A stretch of 64,000 nt of DNA from Tubiluchus corallicola. Taxonomy: Eukaryota > Animalia > Priapulida. The DNA lies in NCBI GenBank assembly GCA_030141605.1, contig JAQGDQ010000145.1, forward strand, positions 186,001 through 250,000. Direction: 5' to 3'. Positions 17,117 through 61,054 of this stretch are shown piece after piece. Below the pieces are notes generated by a model, which saw only the letters and a list, made by a program, of their open reading frames with translations, was not told the DNA's origin and searched no databases. The first letter of the stretch is position 1, and each line of letters opens with the position of its first letter. Position numbers and translations under genes: made by a program.

Positions 17117-20100
17117 TCATAGATAAATATCTGGACACTCTTTCCAGTCTTGCTTCTCCTTTGATTCCCAGTAATTTCCTTTGTACATGTGGATCAAGTT
17201 ACCAGTGTACTGATCACATTCCTTTTTAAACCAAACGGGTTCGTATGGTTGGAAAAGACGACCTAAAAGAAAAGACATTAGCAGCTTCCCTTAGCTACAA
17301 AATTTTTTACTTAATCTTCTGCATCACCGCAAAACATTTCACTAAAAACACAAATTATTCCCATTCTCAATAAACACCTATTATGATCCAGTTTTAGTGA
17401 AAATTAAATGCTTACAAAAAACAAAATCAACACAGTTGTGCTTAAAATGATGTATGTCCAAATTTCACAGATTATGAAATACTTTATTTATCTCTAATAT
17501 TCAGTGATTTAATTTAATATCAAACCAGAAAAATTCATCTAACAATTATTACTTTATTGTGTTGCAATTCAGTTACTGATTTGGTACATTAGTGAGTTAG
17601 TGGTTTAGCCAGTGATGGTTGCTAAATTACATAATGTTATGAAGCAGATAAAAGAAAACGAAGACTTCGCATACATACTTTCTGCTGCTGCTGCTTCGGC
17701 TTCGGCTTCTCTTTCCCTCCGCTTTGCCCTTTGCTTCTCCTCTAATCTTAACTTCACCTACAAATGGATTGCTTACTGGTTTAGTAAAACAGCATGGGTA
17801 AACAGCAGAGCCCAAAGACAACAGAAAACATTTAGCTACAAAGAGAAGCATTTACCAAGTATAAATCTAATATAGCTTTAACATTGGACAATTTAGCCTA
17901 TTTTACATAAATTGGATTACCGTACTGCCAGGGATGTTACTGAAATGAAAATTTTGTTTCTTCTTACCGATAACTGTATTTTCGCAGCCTAAACTTTCCA
18001 TAATTTTCGGTATCATTTTTCCGAGGCTTTAGTAGTATTTATCCACCTTACCTTTTTTATACTAGATGTTAAAAGTTGTTGAGTCCACAAAGTGTAAATA
18101 TCGCTTATTTAACTTTTGTAGCATTTGTAGCATGCTTTAAACTGCAATGCAGCATACGTTCAGTACTGACGACTGTCAAGCTTTAAGGTTTCCAGGCACA
18201 ACCAACCGAAATAAAAAAGTGTAATTTGAATAAAACCAAGTTTAATTTTATAATTTATGAAATATAGGCAACAAAATATGATTTGTGAATTTTATGAAGC
18301 ATCGTGATCTCTAACCATAAACATTGTTCTATTTTTTTGGTTAGGATTCTTTGCTTAGCTACTTTATCAAGCTTGTATCAGAGCAAATAAAAGCAAGCAA
18401 GCAAAACAAAGTATTTTATTCATTTCAGAATTTTTTTCAGTTTTGACAGTAACTGGTTTTGCAAAAATTATTTCAGTTCGGTTTCATTTCGGTATCGGTT
18501 TCCTATGTTTCATAAATTTCGGTTTTGGTTTACAATTTCAGCTTCGGTAACATTCCTGTGTACTACATGAAAGTCTGTACTACATGTACTACACAAATAC
18601 GCTCCAAGTTAATAAAGTCTTGATTTCATAAACAACGTAACATGAGATGCATACATCATTAGCATCGTCAAATTTGCCCTCCTCCATGAGCCGTTGATCT
18701 GGACGTAATCGCGAATCTGTCGGGCAAACTCCTTCTTCCGGTTCATTCAGCTGGCAAGCTAACTTCGTGAAGTGATATCGTCTTGCTGCTTCAGACCTAA
18801 AATAAATTATTAACTTTTCACAAATTATGTATTTGACCGGTGCACAAATTTAAGACCAATGCAACATGAACATTCACATTCCAGTCTTTCTTAACAATGA
18901 TGGCTACATTAGAAAATTGGAGTAACACTTAATACAACAGATAAATCAAGACCAATGGCCTCTCCGGTCACAAAATTGCTCACAGGTATAACAAAATTTT
19001 CCTTACATTTTTTACAATTTGATCAGAAACTCCATAATGTCATTTTAACTTACAGTTTTAACTGCTTGAAATAGGAGATCATCAACATTCCTGCTGAATG
19101 CGCGATTATGATGAAGTTGATATAAGTTTGTATCATTGAGAATTTTCTAGTCCAAACACAGAAAGTGAACATGACAGGGAAAAGGCAGGCTACCCTTCAA
19201 ACTTTAGTCAACACACCCAAGAAGCCTCACTATAATTTCTAAAGTAAAATGTCAAATACAACAATCCAGGATAAGCTATTGCATTAGCGATAGGAATTTT
19301 AATAAGAAATAAGATGAATTTGGTGGACAAAATAACACTCTGATTTTTTAAAATTATCTTTGATTCTTAGTTATTCGAGTTATTGACTGAAGCATATTAT
19401 TCACAAAAATACACAATCGAATGAAAATAATTGCCAACATGAGGTAATATAAACATTAAAAACAACATATAAATGAAGTTAAGAGGGATAAATCCAGTGA
19501 GCTGCTTCAGTGGGCATAGCAACTGAGCTATTTTAGTCATCACTTAAAATTATTAAATTATTTAAAACATAATTACGGAGGATAACGTCTCTTCCAAAGC
19601 AGAACAGATGGCCCCGTCTCCAAGAATGGTTGCCCATCTTTCGTAGATCCAATCGTATCCAACACCTTGGCACCTTCTATTCTATCATCCCAGTGTCCGG
19701 ATAATACCCAGTGGACTTTGCCTTCTGCATCTGTCACAACACCAGTGACCTAATAATAACCGATAACCAAAATATTAAAATAAATCTACAAAATGTTTAT
19801 ATTTGCAAATTCAGACATGACCAGTTCCATATTAGCATTAAGACACAGTTTGCCCTAACCAAATTTTTAGTTTTCATATTGAACCACTATGAAAGAATAA
19901 TAGTAATAGTAGTATTTTATTGACAATAATAATATTATAGTTCATCAATAACATTACAAAAACTGACACCCAGGAGTTAGAAAAAAAATGTCAAGAACAA
20001 ACACCAACACAACAAATTTTCAAACTTGCTGACAAGAATTTACCACACATTTTACTAATTGGCTCAGATATTCTACAATGTACAATAGCATGCGACTGGT

Positions 20101-23100
20101 CTTGAATAGAGACATTATCGCACCTGCTTACCCCATTATCAGGAAAAATGAGTGACCTGGCCCATCTACCAGTCTCAATCCTCAGATGATGAGAGGATAG
20201 CATAAACTTACTAAAACTGATTTGTAAAAGAATAAAGAATTGGGGAGATCAGACGACGAAATTGCATGTTGTACTAATGCAGGGTTCAGGGCTATATATC
20301 AAAATTGTTTACACTTTTAGCCCAAATATTATCTAAAATGTTGTCGGGAACGTAATCATAACACTTACGAAAGGACTTAACTGCATGAGAGTGACGACGT
20401 GAATTAGTAATTATCTGCCTGACAAACATTAGGGATTCATTATAAACTGAAGATTACCAAGCTTTTTATCCAAAAACTGTTTTATGTTTTTTTCAAAATT
20501 ACGTCTCTGACATTAGCCATGTTTGCTTCTATGAGATACAGACCAGCAAGACTATGCGACTGCTAACATACCTTTCTTGGGGGCTCGCGAGAGAAATAAC
20601 TATATGGATAGTACTTTAAATGGCAATTGTCCTTTGTTTTGTGATTAACGATATCCATTTCGCCTGACTGGTCAATCCAGAGTTTGCCTACGATGATATT
20701 ATGTACTGTAGTCATAACCTGTCAATAAAAACAAAGTAAAATATAGATAAAAACTGTTTAAACCACAAAAAAGTACACAATGTTGTGCTTTGCTCATTTT
20801 TGAGCAAACATTTGACAAACATTTACACCCCTTACAAGTTAATATGACTGAATCTCAGAGAGAATTATCACATTTTTTAATTTGAGGATCATTACGACTG
20901 TTGACATTCCATGACACAACTACGTAGTACACAAAATTTACAAAACAGTCGAAATGAGCAACCTATGTATAAGATAAAATACCCTCTAAGCATAATATTT
21001 ATGAGAAAAGTCAGGCTCAAAAAATCCAAACTCTGACATGATTCTTCAACTGCTCTAGTATTATTACTTTACTTAATAATTTTTTTGAAATACTAGCCCG
21101 ATATATTTCCACTGTTTCAACGATGAAATACATAAATCTAAATGTTGTAGGACATCCCATTTTCAAAATCTCCAAAAGTGCAGTGTTTGAGTCTGCGTTA
21201 TCAGATATCAGATTATCAGAAATGCAACATAAGGTTCTAGATACCTAACTAATTTTTAGTTATCAGTAAGTAACAGCATACTGTATTAAGTAAATACTCT
21301 TGAAAAAGTATGAAAGAGTATAGCAAAACAAGGGCAAAGAAGCGAATTAAAAGCTTTAGCCCATGTCAGTAACAGCTGCACTGTGAGTAAGCGCAGATAA
21401 CAGCTTGAACTGAACTTACCTTTTTCCACGAATAACAATTACCATCAGCAAAGTGCAAAAAGTTCAAGCCTTTTGGTTCAATGTTAATATGTTTACCACG
21501 AAAAAAACTGGTGACGCAGAACTCCTTCTGCAGTTTCCAACCCCTTCCCTCTGCGTAACTGGCTGCTACAGGAGGATGGTGACTAACCTACATACATAAA
21601 ACACACATGCACCATTCTTTACCTTCCGCCACGTGTAATGGTTGCCTGTCTTAGGGAATTCTAGATGCGCTATCCCTAAAGGGATAATATTCAGGTACTT
21701 TCCGCGAAATTTGCTTGACATGGTGAATTCTTGGTACATTTTCCAATGTCGGCCCTCAGTATATTGTGCAACTGCTGGCGGATGATGGCTGACCTAAAAT
21801 GGACAAAAACCTACAGTTGGTTGGAACACACTGGAGCTCCCACAAGTGAGCCACACTATTGGACACAATAACTCGAAAACATTGTGTGCTTCAAACACTG
21901 TATGCTGTAGTCTTATAAACATTAACCCTAGCAAGAATTAAGCAGACACAACAGAACTCATGCTATTTTGCCATGGATAAATAGGCAGTGTAAGAATTTG
22001 CCTTGGTGTAAAGTATATTCAGTTAGAAAGAGTGGTACAGACACATTTGACATTGTTGCAAACAAATTAAGTGCAGTTGCCATCTTATAAATATTATCTT
22101 TAATGTGCAATGTGATTCTGGAAAGATATCCTTCTATAAATTAGAAATTTTTTCTTTCAAGCCTTCTGGTCCATTCTAGATAACAATATTTTTGATCTCT
22201 TTTTTCAGTTTTTTGCAGGTTCCTCTGGTTTTAGTAAGAAAAAACAAATGCATTTCCAACTTATGTCTCTAGTCTTATTGTGAACTGTGAATGAATCAGC
22301 TCATCATTAATGCTGAGTCAGTGTTTCTAACAAATTGGTGCTATGAGGTAATACGTATCATATATATATATATACATATATATATATACACACACACGCA
22401 CACGCACACGCACACACACAATAGTGCAAATCACTAAAGCAAGATGAGGCTGGATACTGACAAATATGAGAAAAAGGGTACATGTGACAGACAGGTCACC
22501 TTAGTTTTCAAAAGCTGGGTTTGAACAAAATTCTGTAACACTCTCATGACACACACTTGCTCTAGTATCAAACAACTAGATGTGATGAAGTTCTCATAAA
22601 CATGGTGTTTATCATTTGGTAAAAACAGGCAGAACCATCACAATTTCTTTAACATGTTCACACATTAGATTCCTTCATCAAGCAGGAGTAATGTTTTACA
22701 CACGCAATCAAAACCGCAGAAAAACACTGAAATGAGTTGAACAAGTCTTTGGCTTATATTTACATTGTCATTAAGCACTGAAAGTGTAAAACCAGGCTTA
22801 CACGGGGTTCACGATTTCAGTGATTAAGTCCAACAGTCGCCAAACATTTGCCGAAAGTTCACCAAACATTTGCAAGTGTTCGTCGTTATCGCAAAAAGCC
22901 CGCCAGCTTCAGAAAATTTTTTAAAAATGTTTAAATGTCGCCAGAGTCGCAAAACTGTCTCAAAGATGTTATAACATTCGCCAAGCATTCGCAAACTTTT
23001 CGCTATGTTCGTCAACATTTTCAAAATTCACGAAAACTTGGCAAACATTTTGGGACTGTGTGCGACAGGTTTGCAACTATTTTTCGAACCATTTTGCAAC

Positions 23101-26100
23101 AGTTTGGCGAACCACGGTAAAAAATCCGTAAAATGATCACAAAATACTCGCACAAAACATTCACCATGTCCCAGAAGTCACCAAATATGTGAAACATGTT
23201 GTGCGAAGTTCGTGCATCATTTTCACGATTTTTGCTTGAGAAAAAAGCCCCAAATTTGCAAAAATGTGGCAAAAGTTGCGTGAATGATTTGCAACAAAAC
23301 ATAGTCACGGGAATCATTTGGCGACTGTTGGACTTCTCGCAAAAAAGTCGCTTCCTTGTGAAACTCTGGCTTAAGTGCTGAATTGAAAATTGCTACTGAA
23401 AAATTGAATTATGCTTCTATGTTTTACAAAAGGTAAAATAATACAAATTACCTTTTATAGCTAATAATGCAGAATGTGTATAACCATGTCAAAAAATATT
23501 TAATTCGATGTAGTATGTAGAGTTAGCATTACGTCAAATTAAGTTAGTCATCACTACCAGAAATGAATAGATTTGCCATGCAAGAAAACAGTAGAAGAAA
23601 AAATTCAAAATAATAGAAAAAACAAGCAATCATGTCTCAGGAGGATCATAAGCGTTTTCACAGTTCCAGCAATTGACGATGATCATGAAAAGGTCAAAGG
23701 TTAAGTGAACGAGACAATGCATTTGTGTACACTTGAGAACGCCTCGCAGCCCATGCTTTGTAATAGTAACAATTTTAACACCTAGCTAGAACATTACCTA
23801 GTTAATTTTTTTCTTGTTCCCATGCAAGATTCTGCTAGTAAATCACTCTACGCACAGACTAATGTATAATTAAGTAAAGTCCATGTAAAAAACAACTGAA
23901 GTTAATGAACAGACGCGGGAGACGCCTTGCCTTACATACATGTCACCTGGTGATTTATGGATTTTACATGAAGATGGGTTTTGGTAAAACCGCAGCCAAG
24001 CCCTATTGTTCAGTATTGTGCAAAAATATGTAATACCTACTTAACAATGATCACGGCTAGTCGACTTCATAATAGGCTTGGTCCATTGTGGGCAGGTGTT
24101 AACGAGGTTAGCCTCATGTTGCGTTTAGGCAACCAAAATATTCAATCGGATTTTGCTCCAATGTTATTTTACTTTAATTTAATTTAATACTGCTCTAATT
24201 CTACTTCAGTGTGATTTTAATTACTGTGGCTTTAATTTACATTCTATCTCAAGGTGATTTTAACTAAGCATTGTGGTTTTTAACTGCATTCTATTTTTTA
24301 ACTAGATCGTTTTGTAACTAGTGCGGTACAAATCATGCTACTCATACTGGAATTAAAAAATGATGAATGTTTCTGATGTGACATGGATCATGGTTTAATT
24401 TAACTTAAATTAATTTAAACTTAGTTAGTAACGTGAAAATATTCTGTGTTATTGTCTAATGTACGCTTGATTGTCATCCTTGATAAGTAATGCCACAGCT
24501 CAGCAGTGTTTTCAGCTGCCGCAAGAGCTACCTAGAGGTGAACGAATGTGGGTTTTGTTATCAGCTAATCGTTTAGTGGCCGGTTTTGCCATGTGCGGTT
24601 AAAGACGCATTGCTGGGGTTCACTTAACTTTTGACCTACAGCAACTGTGATTGTACATAGCAAAACTGCAAAAAGGCTTACTGCAAAAGAAAACTGCTGT
24701 TTATATAAATGCTAAAGTAATGAGAAATTGTAAAAAATCAGTAATAACTAAAAGTGCTTATGCTTAAACTACACTTTGTCAGCCCACCACATGACTGTTG
24801 TTCACCAGTTAGCATATCTATAAAAATTAACAGGAAAATTTTCTGGAGAAGATGTGAGGGCAAAGAACCGAACCTGGGAACCCCAGACAGGCAAACCATC
24901 ACAATGTAGATACTGATAATTACAAATTTAGGCCGTTTATATGTAAAAAAAATTATCTACAGTGGAACTAAAACTTTTATTAGTTACATGTTAGTTACTA
25001 TGTTACGTATGTATGTAGTATAATTACAAACATATTATAATGAGCACTGTTCAATGCCACATTTTATCAAGTCATTAAAACTGTAGTACTTCTTGTATCA
25101 TAACAAAATTAAAAACATACCACCTACCTACTAAAATTAATAACAGACTCACTATACAGAAAAAACACTAATATCATGTTAAGACAGTGTTAATGAACTA
25201 TGTGAAAACTGTCTACCTTTACTCTAAAAACTAAAGAAAAAAATGCAGTGCTAGTTATGACAAATAAATAAAAATGCTGCAAATGAATAAACAAAATAAA
25301 ATATTGCACACCACAGTCTCTAACAAAAAAGTAGACAGTGCATTCTGCTTTTTATTTCCAAATGTACATCAACATTCAAAAATCTAAAAAGATAATTTTG
25401 CTACATTTGCAAGTACACAATTATCTCAAAACAAATGTAGCATTAATTGTAGGTACAAAACACTAGTGTGTCATCATGAATACTTTATAGCAAAATAGCA
25501 TTTTGTCTTTCAGCCAAGAGAGTTGCAAGTACTGACCAATTTGTATATATTTCTGCTGAAATTTTACACTGCAGTTCTCAATGTACTTGACAATATTTTA
25601 AGTGAGTATGATTGTAAAAAAAACATACCTGTTCAGAAAGAGCACGCCATCCCAAGTCGTCTCTTCTGTCACACTCGAAGGTTTCCCCGAGTAAAGGATT
25701 AAAAGGTTTAGATGTGCGTGTGGTAGTGGTCGAATACGAAGAGACAGTGAATGCTGCCACGTATGCAAGCTGTTCTTTGGGATCAGTACATTTAGCTGCT
25801 TTATCCAAGATTGAGGAATACTCGAAATCCTCTGTCAATCGTTGCAGCATAGAAAGTGGCTCATTAAAATTCACCTGGAGATAAGGCAAAAATCCAAATA
25901 CATTTAATACCAATACCTTTAAAGATACAAACATCAAAATTCATAGGCCTTTAAATTAAAGTGAAAGTTTAAGATAGTTCAGGAAACCATCAAACGGAGC
26001 TTGATTTTTCTAAGACCAGACGCAAATGTTGCAAATGGTTAATCAATTGATTACTATGCATTAGTGAAGTAGTGGCAGGACAGATTCGCTGATTTAATCA

Positions 26101-29100
26101 ATTATAATCAACCCGGGGTTTTATTTTTGATCATCGATTGTATTACAGATAGCTCAATTGTATTACAGATACCATTTTCAATTTAGTGTTTGGAAAATCC
26201 ACAAAAATCACTCAACAAATATAACTGTCATTACGCTAGAATCAAGTAATGTGGCATTGTTTTGTCTCAATAACTTACTGTGCCTCAGTCGTTGCTTAGA
26301 TGCAAACGTTCCTCAGAAGCATGAAAACATGATTTTTGTGTGCACTTGCCTATTTGTAACTTGATTCAACTATGAAATCAGTTTGATTAGTCAATCCTCA
26401 AAATACAATCAAGTTGGTGTCCCAACACTAAACTGAAAAAACACAGAAGACAGTGACTTACAGGCATGGGGATTTTCGTCAGCTCCTTGCCAATGCAGTT
26501 CTTCATAATACTCCACAAACTGATGCTGTAATTAGGCTTATCAGGAATAATTGTCCTTCGCTTACGTTTCATGACTTTTTGCCCGGAACTAGGTACATCA
26601 CCTGCATGAAAATGGCAAAATAAAATTATCTAGGGTTAAAAAGAAAATCATTTGTTGTGGTTACCTGAACTGCTAAGTCGCTATTGAATCACTTAAATTT
26701 CAGTAATTGTTCATAACGTAAACTGGAGAAAAAGTCCGAGGTAAATTTTTACAAATAGTACTTTAAAACCTTCATTGTAAAACGTTTTCATGCTTTTATG
26801 ATGCAGCTTTACGTACAAAAGGAAAAAGTTTGTTAATAACTAATGACGACTTTGACGTTTGATACCGCAGCACTATTCGATAAACAATGCACAAATTCAA
26901 TATTCAATGAACAAACATTGAACAGATGTGCCATCTTTCATTAGAAATGCATTAATAAGTGTACTGTCACAGCTAACTGCTAGCTTCATCTAGTTTTATG
27001 GGTTTATAAAGTGAATGTCTACCAATAATGTGCACTTGAAAATTTTTGCTTCTGTCTTCTCACGAAATTTGCAAGCATTTCCACCAAACATTATTTTATA
27101 ACTCACAGTCGTCAGTGCAAGTGTCATATATTGTCTATGAACTTTTGCTTTGGTCTCTGCTGAGTTAAGCATAATTGAATTCAATCAAGAGAATTGCTAA
27201 ATTTAAACATGAAGGAATGTGTGCTTTATAGTTTACAATCTTGAATCAACCACAGATTTTTAGCAGTGGCATGCAGTATCAAAGCAGCTTTAGTTACATA
27301 TTTATTTTTACAAAATATATATATTTACCTATCTCTTCTTCTACTTTAACTTCATCCACAGCATCTGGGCATCCTTTCATGGAGACAATGATGGCACGCA
27401 CATTCTTCCTGCCCACTTCCAACTCTGAACCTGAATCATTCTCGTTCTCCACTTCAGATCCACTTGAGCGTGCATTTGATCGTCTACTAATATAAAATAC
27501 GCAGATAACAATATGGCTACTGTAATAGCTCAGTTCAGTTCAGTTCATTTTAGTTGATAATAGGTCAGTCCGCAAAGAGTTAAAAACAGAAATTTTCAGG
27601 TGTTAGGACTACTTTATCTTTAAAAAATTCTGCAACATTAAGCAAAAAAACGTCCCCACATAGTTAAAGGTTTAGGAGAATATATTTGAACACGTGTTCA
27701 AATGCCAATCAATCGGTAATTGATATGCAATCAAAAAAATTTTCTGATAATGGTCTGCAAACTAATTGCACCACATCTGTACAGTGAATCTACATTATAA
27801 ATTACAAAAGTAATGTACAATATTTGTAGGACAGTGCTTTTTAACAAAGCTTGTAAAGCATTTTAACAAATTTAATGTCTTACACAGACGTAATTCAGTT
27901 GTAACCGCTGTCAAATTGTTAAAAAAACATCAAATTTAATTGCACAAATGCATTGTCTCTAAAACAAAAACAGGAAATTCAAGCAATATTGCATGATTTC
28001 AAAATAAGTTGCAACCAATCTATTAAACTCATTCGAAATAAAAGATGGTAGTTACTTGTAACTAAGCTGGAGATCAGGAATTTCAACTTCGAATTCTTGT
28101 GTATCTTCAACAGCATCGTGAAACTCATCCTCTTCATCCTCTGAAGTAATCGCTCCTTAAATCACAGTAAAAAGGAGTTAAAAAATACAATAAAGAAAAA
28201 AGTGGCTTCTTTTAAGATTAGTTCACCTGATATGTAGTTAGAAATAGTTTCAAGTATATGTATTAGGAATAGCCTCTGCATTCTGCACTTTTATTATCAT
28301 AATTGCTTAAATAACAGTAAAAAAGAGTTAAAAATATAATAAAGCAAAAAGGTGGCTTTTTAAGATTAGTTCCCCTAATATGTTGTTAGAAATAATGTAC
28401 TAGGAATAGACTCTGCACTTTTATTACCATAATAAATATAACTTTTCCACATAAGTTGCAGTAATATTTTTTGCTAGCTGAAACAATAGGATTTGTTATT
28501 AAAACAAAATTGAATGAATTAACACGTCAAGTTTCTCACGGATTATGCATGGTTCAGTGTGGTTGACCGACTGAGCATTTTGCCCTAATTTTCACAGTAT
28601 GGCTCCTATTTCGGGCACTTAAAGAACCCAGCTGTTTTAACCATACTGTTACCTCAGCTTCTATCCCAGATGTCTACCCTGCATGTTTTGTGGCTTTAGG
28701 TACTCAAGTTTTTGGAGTTACGAGTCAACGCTTAGAATTTGATGCCTTACAAAAATGAAATGATGAATCCAGCATAAGAGTGATTCTAGAATCCTCTGCT
28801 CGCACATTAGCAACAAAGCTACAAGTTTTTACTATAACAGCATTGTCATGTGCAAGCACATCTATGATTTTTACGAAACTAACTGCTTTTCATCTGTCTG
28901 TCAGTTTTACCTAGGCCGTGAGGAGGTTTTGTTATTTCTTTAGCAGCAGCTGCCTCTTTTCGTGCAACTGCTTCTAGATGACTGTGCTGTTTGGCTAGTT
29001 GTTCCACCATTTCCTCTAATCTTAACCGCTGCTCATGTTCGTACTGAAGAGCTTTTTGCCATCTCTTACCACCAGACTGTGCTAGGTCCAAATAATCTGA

Positions 29101-32100
29101 ACATGCCTACAGACGAAAAAAAAACAAAAGGTATGTATTTAAGTTTAGGTTTAATTTTATTTTCTATAATGGGCTATCCATATCTAGATGCTCTAGCAAT
29201 ACGTACAATTCTAATATCACATACCACTAAGATAATAAATTTACATAAAATTATAAAATATATAAAGTGGGTTGAAAATACATCAAGAAAATAAAAACGT
29301 TAAAACTAGTGAGTTTTCAATTTAGATTAAGATATCAAAAAAAAAACTTGCATTATGAAGCTAAAAAATCTCTAAGCAGCATGCCAACATTTCGAACAAG
29401 TAAGTCTTTAAAAGCAGGCTGTCATTAAATCTTAACCTACAGATAGTATGACGTAAAGTCACAAGATCAGATGTACAGCTTTTTTTTACTACGCTTTGCC
29501 ATTTTGCAATCAAAAAGCAGTGTGGACTCAATGCTGCATTTATCAGAACATTAACTGCCAAGTTCAAGCAAAAGACTATTATTACAAAACCTAGGAAAAT
29601 TAATTAAACTAACAGATTGATTTTAATGGACTTCACTACAACACGAATATAAGAAATCCTGTCCCGTAACCATCTGATTCAGGTAGATAGGCCTGACAAG
29701 GAAAAATTGAGTCTCATTTGCCAAACCACTGACAAGTTTGCATATTCTTTCTTGTCTAGCAAGTGTAATTTGGTGCATACTTTAATATGTCATAATAGAA
29801 CATGTTAAACAACATTGTCTAGTCATACCAGAGCCTAGTAATTACTTAACCCAGTGCTGCTGTGACTTATTTTATTGATACACACATTTTGGGTTATGAG
29901 ATAAATAGCAATAAAAAATGGCAATAATTTCTTAAATCAGTGGACACAAGTATGTGACACTGACTTTTATCTTAAGCTGAATGGCTCCAAATTTCCATTT
30001 TTACATGAAATCTTTCCAGGAAGATCAAGCTGTTGTCCAATGAGTTCTACTCATATGCAAGAATGTGTTTAGATACTTAAAATCAGGAGTACCTACTGTC
30101 TACAGAAAAACATTGCAAGTAAAAAAGATATCAATAACAACTTTGGCATGCATAATAACAACCGTACGAGTGATTTAATGTCCTATAATTGGTTATATAA
30201 CAATATTTATATATTCTTAAATAATTGCACTCAAGCTTTGTCAAAAATAACATATTTACTATCAGTGCTACTACATGGTGTCCCAAAACAAGCAATGCAG
30301 GTGAAATGCACTGATCAATAAATCGAGTATGAAGTTATGTAGTAAAAGGTTATAATACAATAACCTGGCTTTTGTGCATTCCAATGTTAAGTATTACTGC
30401 ACACTCATCGGACATTGTATATTGTAAAAGTGGCATACTTATAACGTACCATGTGCACTGTTTCTTTTGGAACACCACTGTATTTGAAATAAAGCAAACA
30501 TCTATGCACTCACATTAATCATTGCATTAGCTGTTATTCGAAACAATGTAGCCCTCTCATGCACAGACTTGACTTTCTGAGGAAGATCAGGACTACCGTG
30601 TAAAGACATGTGCTCTAGTTCGCTCAGTGACCGCTGGAGGGCAGCACCGTGTTTTACTATCAAATCATTGCATGTACTGAGGTCTTCCAGTTTTGAGTTT
30701 AGTGATCGGAATGTGGACTGCAGCTCGTTTCGCTCAGGCTGACTTGGTGCTTCTTCTTCTTCGTCTTCTACAGTAAAAATGTCGGACAAAAAATTCTAAA
30801 CAGGAGGAATCAATTCAGTAAAACATACACTGATGCATACATGAAAAATGCCCATTGTTAAAAGTTCATAAAAATGTTCAAATGGTTCCACTTTAATATT
30901 AAGCTTTGGGCAGTTTAGACTAACTAAATGCACAAGTACAATCAATATTGTGCACTAATTCTTAAAGGAAAACTTAATCCACACACAATCTTAAACCACA
31001 GCTCAAAACAATCTACCCTACAAAATGTTGAAAGGAAACGCTATTTATTTCAAAAATTACTTACATGAAAGAATTATTACCACACAAATGCAATTTCGTG
31101 CTCGATTTACCAGTTCGCTGTTAGATGAGCACTAGCGCCTGCATCTCGGAAACACGTCACAACAAAAGATAGGTGCTGTGCCTCTCAGCTCGAAGGTGTT
31201 CGTTTGTGACATACTGCACATGTTTGAGAGCTCGTGCATGAGCACAGCGGTAAACTTGAAATTTGAATTTTAAACTTAAAAATTTGCCAAATTTTTGTAT
31301 AGCATACCAAATGTTGTACAGTAGCAATGGATTTCAATTTTTGCTTTTGCAAACACATGCAACACACTCATAGCATGTTTGCTCTGTTGAAAATTATGTT
31401 CATTTGTGATGTCATCACTAGTTGGGCTTAGTCGCCATTAATTAAGGTTTTAATCTATTATTTAATTATCAGAAATGCTTTGGTGTTAGAATGTATGCTT
31501 TCTACCATACACAAACTGGGATAAATGTGAAAAAACATCCTTTAATCTTTTGTAACACTACTATAATGTACAATAAACTGACACAGCAGCTAAGGTGAAA
31601 ATTTAAAATATAACACACCTTCTTCCATCTGACGTATGGCTTTTGCTTTGGCTAATTCAAGTACAGTGACCCATCGTTGTCGTTCCACCTCTGATGTTGC
31701 CCTCAAATGGAAAGTCTGAGTACCACCATTGGTCACTGTAAAGTTACATGTATCCTCTGTGTGTATGAAAGCCCCATGGAGGGAAATTGTACCACGGCAC
31801 GTGTGTGCCATCTCTGCCTGGGTCCTGGATAAAAAAAACTGTCAGATAAATTGCCACCAATTATGACAGATATGTCATGGCAGCACACTGAACCACATTA
31901 CTAAATTCCAAATAATTAGTGCACATAAAATATTATATAGTTAAAGTATAGCACAAAACATTCTGATTATGAATAGCTTAAAAGTAAATGTTAATAATAA
32001 TAATAATAATAAGAAGAAGAATATTATAATAATAATAATTTCATTTAAAGTTACCTTCTGGATGAACAAATAAATTAAGCTTTTTTCCGACTGTAAATAA

Positions 32101-35100
32101 CAATTGTACAACTACATAGCTACTACATTATCCCCTTTACCCTAAATACCATGCACCATTTTTAAAGTCTTTGGTATAACCCGGCCACTGTATCGAACTC
32201 ACAACTTCCTAGACGGAAAGCGGACATGTTACCACTAGGCTAAACTGTCTCGTCTATTGCTTGGAAAAGGTGTACCATACTAATAACACGGATAAGTTGC
32301 CAAACAATAAATTCAACAAAACTGTAGAGTGTTTTGGAAGCAAATTAGTGGCCCTTTCTCTTTTTTAATTTACCCTGTAGGCTTACGAGACTTATCAATT
32401 TCAATGAAAGTTTATGTCAACAATGCATTGCATAATATATTCTTTTGCAAATAAGAATCATCGTTTCAGTTTTAACAGAATATGTATATGGAAAACTAAA
32501 CAAAATAATGCTGATGAAATTTGGCAAAAATAGAGAAATTTATTTGGTTAACTTTTATTGCTTCCGGTACTGAGCAATATGTTGTCCACTAACGTCAATA
32601 ATCTCTTTCAGTTTTAGCTGGATGAAATTATTTCATGGTCAGCATGGGCCTTAGTAATGATTGTGAGTTACTATAGCCTTTGTCTCAATATACTGATTTG
32701 GCTATAATTTTTTTCTGAAACGCAAGGTAATTTATTGCCATTTATTAAATTCCATTAGGGAAACATAAAAGACAACATATTAAACAACAACAATACAATA
32801 CGTCAGTATGCTGACAGCTAACCCTCTTAACTTTTCCATTTGATTTTTGAATTGTGGCTTTTTGTAAGATTTCAGGGATCCACCACTCAATGCAGAACTA
32901 CTACTTAAAGTTAATGAATGCGGCGGGCGCAAAACCTATCTCTCACTATCAAAGTAATCAATCGCTAAATCCAGTACTCTAGCAGTTGCATGTTATTCAT
33001 GTTAGGATGCATAAGATTTCAAAATACTTGTTGGCACTTTGTCTGGTGTGGGTAGCTTTTAATATTTTTTGTTGTTGTTGCACATAATTAGTAGAGTTAG
33101 TATTTTATGTGCATAGCAATTACTTTTATGCTTACTTTTAATACTTAGTGCTATTACAATTTTTAAATGCTAAAACAAAATGTGAATTCAATCGAATTGA
33201 AATAAGCATATGCCATTAACAAGAGAAATTTCAGCAAAGCACACACTCAGCTATTTCATCGTCCAGGACAATATCCATTTCAAAATGAGGGAACAAACTT
33301 TTTTACGAAAGCGTAATAACAGCATTTACATTTTATCACACTAAAACTCATTTCAAATTGTTTCAAAAAGGCTTAAACCTCGGCAGATTTTATCAACTTA
33401 ACACGCAAAAACAACCAGGTTTACAACAACAAAAAGACATTTTAATGGAATCTGACTTACAGTGCCATGTATAAAATGAATTTAACTGATATAATACAAT
33501 ACCATCAACAAAAATAATTACAGATGCAACACTATTAAGACTGCAGAAACGTTTTCGGCAGTTGTGCTTTAAGCAGCAAATAATTTCCTTCCTTATCGGC
33601 AACCATGCTACCATGGGACGTTCATCTGTATATTAATTTACCTCCACGATTATACTGATGAAGCCCAGAGAAGATCAGTTGTTCATAATGCAAGCAGTAA
33701 GACCTACTTGTAGAATAGAGAACGAAAAGCCAGAACAGCCTCATATAATAGCATATAGTGATGGGCGATTTTGAAATTTCGTAATTCCATATCATGATCT
33801 TTGCGACAATTTTTAGTATTGTACTTAGATATTTTCATATTTGCACACTATTTTTATAGACGTGCACCACATTTTCATGTCTAGAAAAAATAAATCTTTT
33901 TCACTAACTACTCTCTGACTATGTCACTACATGCATCACATGTCAAAGAATTTGAAGCCCCCAGTTTGCAACACTGTTACTCGCAATTGTGTGCATTGTT
34001 TAACGAAAGAAAATCAAAGAAAAAATGCAAAGATTCTGTTTTTTTGTGCTAAAACCCTGCTTTTTAGTTAGCGTTAAATTTTGCTCTCGATTATCACGAT
34101 TAATTGAATTCCCGTTCAATTGTCAATTATATTGATTTATACATGGCTGTAATTGTGATTAATTTGATTAATCTATTGATTGTCCATCACTAAAAGCATA
34201 GTGAATTTATTATGGTTTACAAACATTTGGTGTATGCAAGGCCAAGGCAATTATGTACATAAAACGTTTGAAAGACACAATAAATTCACTATGCTGCTTT
34301 GGTTTTTCAATTCCTGAGATTCTCAAAGAATGAATTGCACTAAATCTCTCTCTCTATATATATATATATATATAGTAATCTGTGATTAATAAATTAAAAT
34401 ACGCAGTATCAAAAGAATTTTGGCCAAATTAAATGGTAATAATAAACAAATAATTTTCCCATCTGTGATTTTAAATATATTGCATTAGTTTTTATAGTTT
34501 TAACATCTTTTAAGTATTTGCTGATGTGACATATGATCACAATGAAGTCAATATTATTATATAGTAACTGCATCGACACAATGATACAGTACACCAATAT
34601 ATTGATTAACAATGGAACATTGTTCAGGCATACTAAAAAATTTACTGCAGAAATGGGAAGCACTGAATCTTTGTAAACCTTTGTAAATGCTGCGGTTAAC
34701 ATTTATTTATTTAACCCTTCAATGCCTCTACGTTTACTGGGAAGCCAACATGATGACATCAATTCCACAAAATTCATTTTCAGGCAAAGCAAATTAAACC
34801 TGAACAGGAGATGGATAATAACCTTTACTCACATTGCCGACAAACATATGGTAAAAAGTCTTGCAATTCCTCACGGTTTTTAAGGCTTAAACATGCAATA
34901 GCGATTTACAGAAACTAAAAGGCTCAAAAACACCATTTAGAGCCATTGGGAGGCATCTAGCAAACTAACATCAACGAATAGTAACAGACTTAATATTATA
35001 CTGTCATCATCTGTACATTAATCTGTTTAGGTTCTTGAAGACAATTAACTCTGTAGAAGATTCATTAGTTTTACAGCATGATATTGAACAACTATGTAGG

Positions 35101-38100
35101 TGAAGTAATGAGCGGCAGATGTTATTTAATGTTGATAAATGCGAGGTAATGCATTGCGGTTTTGGGAATCTTAATAAGTGATTGTGTTACGAATGGAATA
35201 ACTCTTCAAAATACAAATACATTGCAGTAGAAATAGTCTTGGTGTGATAATAACATCAGACTTAAAATTTTCCCAGCAGTGTATTAAAAAAGCAAACCAA
35301 ATTTTGCGGATGATAAAAAGACACCTCGTTTCTAGAAATAAAGAAATTATATTGAAATTAGACATTGGTTTGGAATCCCCATTACTGACTAGAAAAGCAA
35401 ACATGTTACCTGAAAATTATTTAATTTGGTTGTTGATTCTAAAACTAAAGGACATCGTTCAAAACTTTTCAAAGAATGTCTTGACATTGTTAAATATTCA
35501 TTTACCATGAAAGTAGTGAATGAATGGAAGAATCTGCCTGCCATGGTGATTGCCGCACTAACAATAGTGAAGTTTAATCTTTAATCGACAATTATTTTGT
35601 GGAAAAATATGGAGTTTCTATGAGTGTACTCGCTTGTAGTGTAACAGTACAAACACAGACTTTAACGATTACTAATAATTCGGTTAATATTTAGTTTCTT
35701 GAGTTAAGTTATTTCATACACATAACACGCCATTCCAGACTGACACTGTATTAATAGTCAATAAGAAATTGTCCTAGTACCAAGGAATGCTTTATATGTT
35801 ATAACTAAAACATCACAAATGTGAAAAAAGCAGCAATGTTTTTGTTACAGTTCTTGCATTTGTTAATAATAATAATAATAATAATAACAACAACAACAAC
35901 AACAATAATAATAATATAATAATAATAATAATAATAATACCAATAATAGTACCAATAATAATTTATGCAAATTGTAAGTTTACCTAACAATATTACTTAT
36001 TGTTGTGCATTATAGTTAACTTCAAAAAGACTGTCTAGGATTTTTCATAATATCTTAGGCAAATAAACCTCAAGTAATTACCAATAACTATTTAACAAAA
36101 CATGTTTTAATAGTGCATTGCTTACAAGACTACAAAAATATATAAATTTTCCACACAATAATGTATTAATAGCATTAAAGTATTTTGTAAGATTTTGCTT
36201 ATTTTGTTGTACTGTTTGGTAATGTATCTTAGATGGCTTTTTTGAGAGACTGCTTTATGTATAAAGGTCAGACAATAAAAATAAAGTTTTTTTTGAAATA
36301 AAGAAGTATCAATATTAGCAATTAGGGCGTGTGGCCTTGTCGAGTCTTTAGTTGCTTTGATTAGTTATTGACACTTTAACAGCATTAGAAAGCACAGGAC
36401 TTCTCTGTAGTCGCACATGAGTACAAAGGTTAGCTACTAAAAAGAAAATTACAAACGTCGATAAAAATGCAAGCACAGCAAAATGGTTCTTTTAGGCACA
36501 TGGCAAAAAATGACAACCACAACCTATGAAATCACAACCAATTTGTCAATTTAATGCGAATTTTAATGACTGCAACTAGCTTAATTATAATAACAAAAAT
36601 ACTGAATTATTGTAAGTGAATTTCATTAAAAACTGTGAATGGTGGTTTTGTGGTGATTATTTTAGGCTCTTAGTTCAACAGTAATTTTAATGGCTAGTGC
36701 CCGTCATAGTGATGAATGCTGTGAAAACTTGAGAGTCTAGCAGTTAGCCAGTTACCTAGCTGTCCAGTTAAGTCATTTTTTTAATTGGATATAAGCAATG
36801 CAATTTGATTGGCCTAATAAAAATTGTATGACCTGATCTGATAGAAACCTCAGTTAAAAATATTGAACTTAACTCGTTGCTTTCCTTACTCTTCTTTCTC
36901 TCTCTATCTGTCTGTCTGCCTCTCTCTCTTTCTCTCTCCCTACCTCCATCTCTCTCTCTCTCTTTCTCCTCATTTCAATGTAGATGTACTCAATACTATA
37001 GCAACTACAGTGCATGGCAAAATATTACATGATGAGAAAACGAAAAAAAAAACATTAGTCAGCTAGTCTCTAGTGCCTTATAAGAAACAGTAACTCAGTA
37101 ATAAGCAACTCAGTGGAAATGCATAACAAGTACCGCATAACAAAGACCAATAGCACTGTCAAATGATAAGAATAAGACAAAAGTGATGAATTTACATCAG
37201 ATGTCATTACGTCAGATGAAGATACCGGCATCTCTGACGTCACGTTTGAAGGTCTAATCGTTCGTATTCTGTATGGGAATCCGGAGAAGAGGATCTCGAC
37301 ATTATCCGATTTCAAGAGATGCGTTCTTCCCCTGTTCTGTGTCCTGCCAGTTTGAAAGGAAGCTGTGGAGACGTCCTGGAAAAGACTACCTTTTGCCCAC
37401 GAAGTAGATTGAGAGGGACTGAATTCTGCTGAATTACTACAACGTGCGTGAGGAAGGACCGGTCCTACCCAAATGCTGGAAGCCTTGGCAAACTAATTTT
37501 GTTATTGTTGTTTGATGGAAACTGTTTTTTTATATAATGTCCTGTACAATGTTCACTCTGTAAATTGAAATAATAATCCTGACACTTATCTATAAAAAGT
37601 AAGAAAATAGTTCACAAACTTGTTTTATTGTCACAGGATGTTACATAAATCAGTCATAAATTAAAATATGGATACTGGTAACTTAAATTATTTAAACAAG
37701 CTGTGAAGCAAAATCACGAAGTCAGTCAAAAATTTGCTAATGTTATTTCAATTTCTGTATTTAGATAGTAGAAATTTTTTGCATGTTTTTATAAATGTAC
37801 GCATGAACCTGTTGCAAGTGACTGGGTGATAAAAATAAACACAAATTCAATTAAAAATTACAAGTATCAATTATGTACAAAAAATAAAATGGCTTCAACC
37901 CCAAAATACATGCGCCATTAGATAATGGTAGTAATTTAAACCTATTAATCTTAATTCAGCAATATAGAATAGCGGTCAGTAAGTGAATAGGGACTATGCT
38001 AAAACGTTCAGTGATATAACGAATAATCCTTGGATGCTAATAACATCCAAGTGGCTTTCCAGATCATGACATCTTCAAATGACATAATCAGCTGCTATCA

Positions 38101-38794
38101 ACGACAGAGTGCGACTGAGCCGCCTTGCACACCTCTAACCACTAGTTTCTTTCCTGCATCTCACGTACCTTTCGTTTGTTTTCATGTTTGCTACAATTTA
38201 TATACCAATCACTGTACTAATGCACCATCCATGTGTATCACAACAGCCAAGATTAACACTTTTTGTGTATCGTTCAAAAGGTCAAGAGCTATAGTTCACA
38301 TTCTCACTCAGTTTCTACAGATTCGAAATAAATTGAAATAGTGTTCATCTAGTAATTGATGGTCTTAAAGAGGAAGGATACCACAGATGTCCAGAAATTA
38401 AATTGGATTAGTGTTGAACTATGAGCATACGTGGTTTAGCAACATTGCCACAGGTCTTTCAATGTTTTATTCATTCATTTTACCTTTTTATAACGATTGA
38501 AACAATATCATCATAGTCAAAGGGCAACAGACAAACGTGCGTTACCTCGTAATTAAACAAAAACCAATTATATGTCGTAATTAACCAGATTAAACTACAG
38601 CGAAAAAAAGCAGCTTGCCTCTACGATTTCGCATAATATAAATTTTCCTGTGGTTACCTGTAATAAGACAGCAAGCCAGCCGACACGACAAACCATCGTT
38701 TTTGATAACCTTTCAAATAATTAGTCCACTTATATAACCAACCCTTAAAGTCAGGCACAGAAGGTATTTCTCTCTGGTCCACCATTGTTGTCAT
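17117..38794 (-). CDS. OSBP: Oxysterol-binding protein (OSBP/OSBP2 subfamily; PH, FFAT, ORD), about 764 aa
   Basis: Exons (minus strand): 38794-38658, 31824-31619, 30767-30514, 29106-28911, 28155-28056, 27486-27329, 26601-26462, 25874-25629, [21793-21623 OR 21587-21420], 20718-20572, 19749-19577, 18796-18655, 17757-17679, 17262-17117 (TGA). PH domain [19 protein letters not shown]; FFAT-like [12 protein letters not shown]; ORD motifs [63 protein letters not shown]; C-terminus WKECPDIYL. Confidence 0.95.
17929..18558. mobile_element. hAT-type non-autonomous element (MITE)
   Basis: TIRs CAGGGATGTTACTGAA / TTCGGTAACATTCCTG; degenerate 8-bp TSD cgtactgc / tgtactac; subterminal TTCGGT(T) repeats. 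Confidence 0.75.
19990..20300 (-). mobile_element. LINE (CR1/L2-group) ORF2 3'-end remnant
   Basis: Translation [13 protein letters not shown]...C...[10 protein letters not shown] matches the C-terminal motif of L2/CR1-group ORF2 proteins; degraded. Confidence 0.7.
21420..21587 (-). CDS. OSBP: OSBP exon 9B (tandem-duplicated alternative exon)
   Basis: atgtag|GTT...AAG|gtaagt, 168 nt, phase 0/0, open frame: [56 protein letters not shown]. Confidence 0.85.
21623..21793 (-). CDS. OSBP: OSBP exon 9A (canonical-like alternative exon)
   Basis: attttag|GTC...AAG|gtaaag, 171 nt, phase 0/0: [57 protein letters not shown]. Confidence 0.93.
22790..23371. mobile_element. PIF/Harbinger-like MITE with internal degenerate repeats
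   Basis: TAA flanks on both sides; degenerate TIRs aaccaggcttacac / gtgaaactctggct; perfect subterminal inverted repeat aagtccaacagtcgccaaa (22826) / tttggcgactgttggactt (23317). Confidence 0.7.
28156..28432. repeat. Tandem intronic duplication (offset 150 bp) including the OSBP exon 5 splice acceptor
   Basis: cttaaatcacagtaaaaaggagtt...ctgcacttttattatcataat at 28156 is repeated as cttaaataacagtaaaaaagagtt...ctgcacttttattaccataat at 28306. Confidence 0.85.
32155..32242 (-). mobile_element. tRNA-derived SINE 5' head
   Basis: Minus strand TAGCCTAGTGG (A box) ... GAGTTCGATAC (B box), followed by ggccgggttataccaaagactttaaaaatggt, a body start typical of invertebrate tRNA-SINEs; no intact cloverleaf. 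Confidence 0.7.
33756..34192. mobile_element. hAT-type MITE
   Basis: TIRs TAGTGATGGGCGAT / ATTGTCCATCACTA; 8-bp TSD atagcata / aaagcata (7 of 8 match). Confidence 0.75.
34195..34295. repeat. 101-bp imperfect palindrome
   Basis: agcatagtgaatttatt ... aataaattcactatgct is a perfect 17-bp inverted repeat, extending to about 40 bp with mismatches. Confidence 0.8.
35040..35600 (+). mobile_element. CR1-type LINE reverse-transcriptase 3' remnant
   Basis: Degraded translation LQHDIEQL...[13 protein letters not shown]...[26 protein letters not shown]...[10 protein letters not shown], the typical post-RT region of CR1 ORF2, with stops and deletions. Confidence 0.8.
35864..35961. repeat. (AAT)n/(AAC)n microsatellite
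   Basis: Direct reading of trinucleotide runs. Confidence 0.9.

Positions 38795-39908: not shown

Positions 39909-61054
<21,146 letters not shown>

What the first reader, a model, noticed from the sequence alone, without database searches (positions are those of the whole stretch)
21420..21793. OSBP lipid-binding-pocket exon present as two intact tandem copies: candidate mutually exclusive exon switch
Seen: two phase-0/0 exons with canonical splice sites. 9A (171 nt) is [57 protein letters not shown] and 9B (168 nt) is [56 protein letters not shown]. They share 31 of 57 residues by hand alignment. Either exon joins ...ALSEQ to VMTTVHNII... in frame. In the shared VSHHPP block 5 of 6 third-codon positions differ while the amino acids are unchanged, and the only indel is one whole codon; this pattern fits an old duplicate under purifying selection rather than a decaying copy. 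Known: EQVSHHPP is the OSBP/ORP fingerprint, its His pair binds the PI4P head group, and the following beta-strands form part of the barrel that carries the counter-transported lipid. Inference: one gene makes two ORDs with the same PI4P site but a different pocket wall (SKFRGKY to [15 protein letters not shown] to IEPKGLNF), possibly changing cargo specificity or kinetics by splicing. I am not aware of this arrangement in vertebrate OSBP but cannot verify that it is undescribed.
Basis: partly seen in the sequence, partly recalled or inferred. Interest (0 to 1): 0.85.

Follow-up and report, generated by a model that had tools for sequence, protein, structure and literature searches.

The report
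OSBP gene with swappable pocket exons
A lipid-transfer gene (OSBP) that groups with priapulid worms carries two old, intact copies of the exon for the mouth and part of the wall of its lipid pocket, only 35 bases apart; it likely makes two protein versions by using one copy or the other, as annotated oyster isoforms do with the same segment, and the second version is predicted to dock on membranes differently.

Summary
Observation confirmed. Exons 9A (21793-21623) and 9B (21587-21420, minus strand) are open, phase 0, AG/GT-bounded, and share 31 of 56 aligned residues. Silent sites are saturated (10 of 10 fourfold sites differ), and 0 of 12,000 neutral-decay simulations matched 9B, so it has been under purifying selection. 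The spacer is 35 nt, against 416-6833 nt for the gene's 13 other introns: likely too short to splice, which would force one-or-the-other use. It holds an Rbfox-type UGCAUG (post hoc lead). No RNA covering either exon was obtained, so use of 9B is unproven. New: four oyster species have RefSeq OSBP isoform pairs that differ only in the first 40 residues of this segment; different exon ends suggest an independent duplication. Refinement: 9B keeps the His pair and 13 of 14 family-wide positions. Its inner-face changes are mostly mild, while the radical ones face outward, chiefly K28F in the hairpin matching ORP1's membrane-docking patch. Altered docking or kinetics is therefore likelier than a new cargo. 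This is a known splicing type in a gene where my literature searches found no description of it.

The parts
21623..21793 (-). Exon 9A: conserved copy, 57 codons, His pair, five predicted beta-strands, ends in the Lys equal to human K577
   Evidence: 89% identical to Priapulus caudatus XP_014670942; keeps 22 of 22 OSBP-invariant positions; strands from the Limulus model
21420..21587 (-). Exon 9B: diverged copy, 56 codons, consensus donor; keeps the His pair, changes 6 of 22 OSBP-invariant positions (Q21K, M25V, K28F, Y33H, L34I, H43F; 9A numbering)
21588..21622 (-). 35-nt spacer (GT..AG), likely too short to be spliced; retention gives a stop at codon 555
   Evidence: other introns 416-6833 nt in this gene and gaps of 164-815 nt in the neighbour
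21606..21611 (-). UGCAUG hexamer (Rbfox-type) at +12 of the spacer and -24 to -19 of the 9B acceptor, followed by UG repeats; candidate switch element
   Evidence: 240 of 18,738 35-nt windows (1.3%) of the gene's other introns hold it; motif picked after seeing the sequence; binding untested
25629..25874 (-). Exon 8, shared upstream exon (phase 0 donor); holds the equivalents of human M446, D453 and T491
20572..20718 (-). Exon 10, shared downstream exon (phase 0 acceptor)
17117..38794 (-). Whole OSBP coding span: PH domain, coiled region, FFAT-like motif (motif recalled), ORD; 15 exons counting 9A and 9B
   Evidence: the modelled 727-nt intron between exons 6 and 7 matches a spliced joint in run X2; sister to P. 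caudatus XP_014670942, SH-aLRT 96

Best explanation
The OSBP gene holds two old, intact copies of exon 9 that are likely spliced one at a time because the 35-nt spacer is likely too short for the spliceosome, giving a standard OSBP (9A) and a second, probably minor form (9B) predicted to keep PI4P and sterol binding but to dock on membranes and exchange lipid differently. Shown: the two exons, their frames, the spacer length and the selection signature. Inferred: steric exclusion; tissue choice through an Rbfox-type protein on the spacer's UGCAUG, which by the published position rule would repress 9B and favour 9A; and the functional effect, led by K28F, which removes a basic residue from the hairpin matching ORP1's membrane-binding Patch II and puts a second Phe at the tunnel mouth.
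For: Selection: pS 0.94, pN 0.32, 10 of 10 fourfold sites differ, 22 of 31 same-residue codons differ. 0 of 12,000 neutral simulations met all four conditions (no stop, both splice sites, at least 31 identities, at least 38 third-position differences); profile score 84.6 against 41.8 +/- 8.1, reached by 0 of 170 stop-free neutral copies. Spacer of 35 nt against 13 introns of 416-6833 nt and 7 neighbour-gene gaps of 164-815 nt. In C. elegans, five clusters with intervening introns under about 40 nt are deemed incapable of double inclusion, and all their exons are 3n long, as here (PMC4165533, passages); vertebrate donor-to-branch limit about 50 nt (PMC7969005 and PMC5740500, passages). Oyster X1/X2 pairs differ at 15-19 residues, all within the 40-residue block; two gene models hold both blocks in tandem; one Logan contig of 3293 nt carries the B block joined to both flanks (P0270). 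13 of 14 family-wide positions are kept, K28 being the exception. K28 aligns to ORP1 K678 in the beta4-beta5 hairpin, whose basic residues are needed for membrane association and sterol transfer (PMC6381110, passages); K678A primers are in its supplement. Rbfox rule and egl-15 precedent: PMC2777236, passages.
Against: No transcript with 9B, or with 9A, was seen, so splicing at this locus is untested. No 9B orthologue was found: best hits were 58-60% or lower and not 9B-like, and both P. caudatus RefSeq models carry an A-type exon in one-member clusters. 9B is fast-evolving (end branch 3.82 against a median of 0.09) and has lost 6 of 22 OSBP-invariant residues, which also fits relaxed selection. 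The priapulid minimum intron size is not known genome-wide; only 20 other introns or gaps were measured. The only YTNAY branch-like site within 80 nt of the 9B acceptor is at -10. Inward or outward facing was inferred from periodicity, not from coordinates. That K678 itself belongs to Patch II is inferred, since the paper's figure was not seen.
Confidence: 0.6

Rival explanations
1. Same either/or splicing, but 9B changes cargo or abolishes sterol transfer (a PI4P-only carrier, a tether, or a damper of the 9A form).
For: Hydrophobic-face changes Q21K, M25V and A42N touch positions that are 100%, 99% and 82% conserved in 91 OSBP segments. Tunnel shape alone removes sterol binding in ORP3 (PMC8049286, passages). 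Oyster B forms change inner-face F23 and M25. 9B has the same EPKG stretch as ORP1.
Against: Most inner-face changes are conservative. P38 (ORP1 P688, tunnel bottom) and K57 (human K577, a modelled oxysterol contact, PMC11830314) are kept, and the other named contacts lie in shared exon 8.
Confidence: 0.2
2. 9B is a relic: it was selected for a long time but is now silent or only leakily spliced, and has not yet decayed.
For: No RNA support here; no orthologue found; long branch. The selection tests average over history and cannot see a recent loss.
Against: Open frame, consensus donor and intact acceptor. The X1 contig across both exons has no listed change in them: 14 of its 16 substitutions are listed, all at 21868-22302, and its two gap letters are at 22199. 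Background variation is patchy and X1 may be the source sample, so this is weak.
Confidence: 0.12
3. The exons are not exclusive: both are included (820 aa), or 9B mainly serves unproductive splicing through spacer retention and decay.
For: Double inclusion stays in frame, so decay cannot police it; spacer retention gives a stop at codon 555. C. elegans bet-2 retains such a spacer.
Against: It needs removal of a 35-nt intron and would insert five extra strands into the barrel. Amino-acid-level selection on 9B makes a decay-only role unlikely.
Confidence: 0.05

Closest known systems
Oyster OSBP isoforms X1/X2 in RefSeq (Magallana gigas XP_011442434, Crassostrea angulata XP_052713315, C. virginica XP_022340469, Saccostrea cucullata XP_062568740)
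   Same: Same gene family and same segment start at the fingerprint; equal-length isoforms; tandem blocks in two gene models; B forms also change positions 10, 12, 19, 24, 25 and 39.
   Different: The oyster differences stop at residue 39-40 and the rest is shared, whereas 9A/9B span all 57 residues. Oyster B keeps K28 and changes F23 (and K32). 9B shares only 18-21 of 40 residues with oyster B, fewer than the 24 it shares with 9A.
C. elegans mutually exclusive clusters with unspliceable spacers (egl-15 5B/5A 14 nt, let-2 9/10 30 nt, bet-2, gly-5, gly-6)
   Same: 3n-length exon pairs with an intervening intron under 40 nt; in egl-15, Fox proteins and SUP-12 bind UGCAUG and GUGUG upstream of the repressed exon.
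   Different: Those are RNA-verified. In egl-15 the element lies upstream of the first exon; here it lies between the two copies. No OSBP gene is mentioned in that paper's main text (0 hits for obr or oxysterol).
Human tandem-exon-duplication substitutions (PMC8373072; PMC5740500), e.g. FGFR2 IIIb/IIIc, OGDH 4a/4b
   Same: Homologous exons that swap part of a functional site; steric exclusion in 57 of 629 human clusters.
   Different: OSBP has 0 hits in the text and supplement of PMC8373072. PMC5740500's mapping table lists only short OSBPL9 and OSBPL5 candidates that lack the fingerprint.
Human OSBP ORD (PDB 7V62) and ORP1 ORD (5ZM5)
   Same: 7V62 is the best structural relative of 9B (E 1.9e-11); the His pair, tunnel-bottom Pro and K577 equivalent are kept.
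   Different: A single version of this segment in those proteins; 9B has Phe where both have Lys (ORP1 K678; human K548 by my numbering).

Membership tests
Homologous mutually exclusive exons | Adjacent homologous exons with the same frame and phase | tested here: met
Homologous mutually exclusive exons | Both copies under coding constraint | tested here: met
Homologous mutually exclusive exons | Each exon seen in mRNA, never both or neither | tested here: inconclusive
   No listed RNA holder; run X2 had no contig on exons 8-10
Sterically enforced MXE | Intervening intron below the species' minimum or donor-to-branch distance under about 50 nt | tested here: met
   The whole spacer is 35 nt, so any branch point inside it is under 35 nt from the donor; the shortest of 20 other introns or gaps is 164 nt; the genome-wide minimum was not measurable
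NMD-enforced MXE | Double inclusion or skipping shifts the frame | tested here: not met
   820-aa and 707-aa products are open
RNA-structure (docker/selector) MXE | Competing conserved base-pairings | tested here: inconclusive
   Fold z-score +0.66; only short inverted repeats; no relatives' DNA for covariation
Rbfox-regulated MXE | Conserved, bound (U)GCAUG flanking the regulated exon | tested here: inconclusive
   Motif present, 1.3% background; conservation and binding not testable
OSBP (OSBP/ORP4 subfamily) | PH domain, ORD with fingerprint His pair, closest to OSBP | tested here: met
OSBP (OSBP/ORP4 subfamily) | Sterol/PI4P exchange activity of each isoform | not testable with these tools
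   needs liposome assays

The most novel reading that the evidence does not exclude
Priapulids and oysters independently evolved a splice switch in the same mouth-and-wall segment of OSBP, so one gene yields two lipid exchangers with different membrane docking or cargo, chosen by tissue (here through an Rbfox site inside an unspliceable spacer). The two natural B forms would be ready-made probes of what tunes ORD transfer.
Probability: 0.2. Interest if true: 0.75.

Novelty: new member of a known kind. Interest (0 to 1): 0.5.

Why it matters
ORP cargo and kinetics are usually described as differing between paralogous genes (own knowledge; review PMC11359446 had 0 hits for 'splice' or 'isoform'). 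A splice-selected ORD would let one essential gene serve two membrane contexts. If the oyster and priapulid pairs arose separately, the same segment was picked twice, which marks it as a tuning point. The natural substitutions (K28F here; F23V/M, M25I and K32S in oysters) are direct tests of how the mouth hairpin and tunnel wall set docking and selectivity.

Tried and rejected
RNA: no RNA holder listed. Run X2 (RNA is a guess; 8 other letters in 122 and 10 in 172 on two exon pieces) gave one spliced OSBP joint but no contig on exons 8-10 at 85% or on 19500-22300 at 80%; this blank says nothing on expression. The X1 contig over both exons appeared and not (the tool filters records), so its 2 unlisted differences were not placed. 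No whole genome is held. 9B relatives: 0 of 2 candidates among longer proteins (lengths 31-98 aa not searched); 306 hits in the 50% library, none 9B-like among the 150 listed; no usable Atlas hit; 28 metagenome loci, none with a tandem copy (26 of 28 had a profile match). Other lineages: of 76 listed members of 10 more clusters, 68 had the motif and all carried a single A-type segment; cephalopod, Lingula, Patella, Haliotis and Lineus members likewise. Gene models can miss such exons. Tree of the 40-residue block: 9B groups with 9A and Priapulus (90/82, not starred), and a joint clade with oyster B is not rejected (p-AU 0.27), so the tree does not prove independence. No Rfam match; no unusual RNA fold. 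The structure model (Limulus P0026, pLDDT 87.8, best match 7V62) gave strands but no coordinates, and the spliced window isoforms were not folded. Rejected: assembly duplication, recent duplication, long neutral decay, origin from the second Priapulus-type paralogue (23 of 40 identical, no closer than 9A at 24), and frame-shift policing. Earlier scan notes held nothing on this exon.

Full report
Observation. The minus strand holds two exons exactly as described: 9A at 21793-21623 and 9B at 21587-21420, both open, AG/GT-bounded and phase 0. Both pass the Pfam Oxysterol_BP cut-off and no third copy lies in the window. A hand-built 15-exon model (38794-17117) gives open proteins of 764 aa with 9A and 763 aa with 9B. 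One modelled intron, 727 nt between exons 6 and 7, matches a spliced joint in run X2, which is RNA by guess and differs by about 6% from the window. The protein is sister to Priapulus caudatus XP_014670942 (SH-aLRT 96, 25 rows) and 9A is 89% identical to it, so the animal is likely a priapulid or close kin.

Age and selection. Over 56 aligned codons 31 residues match; differences by codon position are 25, 13 and 38; pN is 0.32 and pS 0.94; 10 of 10 fourfold sites differ. I simulated 9B decaying neutrally from 9A at eight branch lengths, 1,500 runs each. None of 12,000 kept an open frame, both splice sites, at least 31 identities and at least 38 third-position differences. Among the 170 stop-free copies with 30-32 identities none reached 9B's family-profile score (84.6 against 41.8 +/- 8.1). 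The model is simple (no indels, 9A taken as ancestor) and cannot detect recent silencing. Change is one-sided: 9A keeps 22 of 22 positions invariant in 91 OSBP segments, 9B keeps 16 of 22, and 13 of 14 positions shared by 90% of 188 wider-family segments.

How exclusion likely works. Including both exons (820 aa) or neither (707 aa) stays in frame, so decay cannot enforce the choice. The spacer is 35 nt, against 416-6833 nt for the 13 other introns and 164-815 nt for 7 gaps measured in the neighbouring MetRS gene. In C. elegans five clusters have intervening introns under about 40 nt and are deemed incapable of double inclusion, all with 3n exons (PMC4165533, passages). A donor-to-branch limit near 50 nt is cited for vertebrates (PMC7969005, passages; PMC5740500, passages). 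Retaining the spacer gives a stop at codon 555. The spacer also holds UGCAUG at 21611-21606, followed by UG repeats, where a branch point would be expected; 240 of 18,738 35-nt windows in the gene's other introns hold the hexamer. Fox-family proteins repress the exon downstream of this motif and enhance the exon upstream, and act with SUP-12 on GUGUG in egl-15 (PMC2777236, passages). One site would thus favour 9A and repress 9B. I noticed the motif after seeing the sequence and could not test its conservation, so it is a lead. No unusual RNA fold was found.

Expression. Not established. No RNA holder was listed and X2 had no contig over exons 8-10. One X1 contig spans both exons, with 14 of its 16 substitutions listed, all in the upstream intron; X1 may be the window's own sample.

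A parallel in oysters. Among 301 fetched proteins screened up, two oyster gene models (P0041, P0272) held the fingerprint twice. Searching with the second block found Crassostrea angulata isoform X2 and a Logan contig protein carrying it joined to both flanks. RefSeq X1/X2 pairs of M. gigas, C. angulata, C. virginica and Saccostrea cucullata are of equal length and differ at 15, 15, 17 and 19 residues, all inside the 40-residue block. Of 11 Logan-only oyster-type proteins that I saw with the motif, 1 has the B block, which hints that B is minor. Other lineages showed only one type: 68 of 76 listed members of 10 further clusters had the motif, each with a single A-type segment. Independence is likely but not proven. 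The oyster unit ends at residue 40, where read-through ORFs of other animals also break (P0207, P0149), while 9B is diverged across all 57 residues. 9B also shares N35 with 9A, found in only 3% of OSBP segments. The tree puts 9B with 9A and Priapulus (90/82) but does not reject a joint B clade (p-AU 0.27).

What 9B changes. A model of Limulus OSBP (pLDDT 87.8, best match 7V62) shows the exon as the His loop plus five strands. Kept in both copies: the His pair that binds the PI4P head group (PMC11359446, passages), P38 (ORP1 P688, tunnel bottom; PMC6381110, passages) and K57. K57 equals human K577 with an offset of 403 that also reproduces M446 and D453 (PMC9786093 and PMC11830314, passages). 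On the more hydrophobic strand face the changes are M19L, Q21K, M25V, L34I and A42N; the radical ones (K28F, I37E, H52C, and also Y20Q, T24C, H43F) are on the other face (strand 7-13 is ambiguous). K28 aligns to ORP1 K678 in the beta4-beta5 hairpin, called Patch II, whose basic residues are needed for membrane association and sterol transfer. K676A and K678A primers are in the supplement and Y674 (T24 here) contacts an acyl chain; the figures were not seen. C. virginica and S. cucullata B also drop one basic residue from this hairpin, M. gigas B does not. I therefore predict changed docking or kinetics before changed cargo, though Q21K and A42N keep the cargo reading open, and tunnel shape alone removes sterol binding in ORP3 (PMC8049286, passages). 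The 7V62 paper itself was not read.

What is known. Homologous mutually exclusive exons with steric spacers are an established class. For OSBP, three full-text searches (1 paper; 25 of 61 listed; 3 of 4 listed; listings only, apart from PMC8373072) showed no paper on such a switch. OSBP has 0 hits in the text and the one held supplement of PMC8373072. PMC5740500 lists only short OSBPL9 and OSBPL5 candidates without the fingerprint (files 4 and 5 seen in part). The library lacks most subscription papers, and the oyster isoforms are already in RefSeq as automatic models.

Verdict. A real, old, selected exon pair, likely mutually exclusive (about 0.8 summed over the first two explanations), without RNA proof at this locus. 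It is a new member of a known kind, made more interesting by the probable repeat in oysters. Interest 0.5.

Noticed in passing
window about 61050-39912, minus strand: Methionyl-tRNA synthetase gene upstream of OSBP: Pfam tRNA-synt_1g on two exons and a C-terminal WHEP domain; used as an intron-length control.
   Followed up: partly
window about 12300-5200, minus strand: Exon-like ORFs of a membrane transporter that look like SLC43/LAT3 (label recalled); no Pfam hit on two pieces.
   Followed up: no
window about 23650-24620 (intron 8): High-copy repeat: summed contig depth up to 7,762 in run X1, with many joints and loose ends.
   Followed up: no
window 27486 and 21810: Tandem acceptor at exon 6 (two AGs 3 nt apart, in frame) and a second AG 17 nt upstream of the 9A acceptor that would shift the frame.
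   Followed up: no
P0003 and P0004 (Priapulus caudatus RefSeq models): P. caudatus has two OSBP paralogues. The XP_014670942 model lacks exon 8 and its exon-2 stretch matches the window's opposite strand, so the model is faulty and its lack of a B isoform means little.
   Followed up: partly
P0297, P0298 (oyster X2 isoforms): In C. virginica and S. cucullata the B block changes the fingerprint Ser to Gly and K32 to Ser.
   Followed up: partly
window about 46300-46600: Long dinucleotide microsatellite inside a MetRS intron, seen as a Ser-Leu repeat ORF.
   Followed up: no
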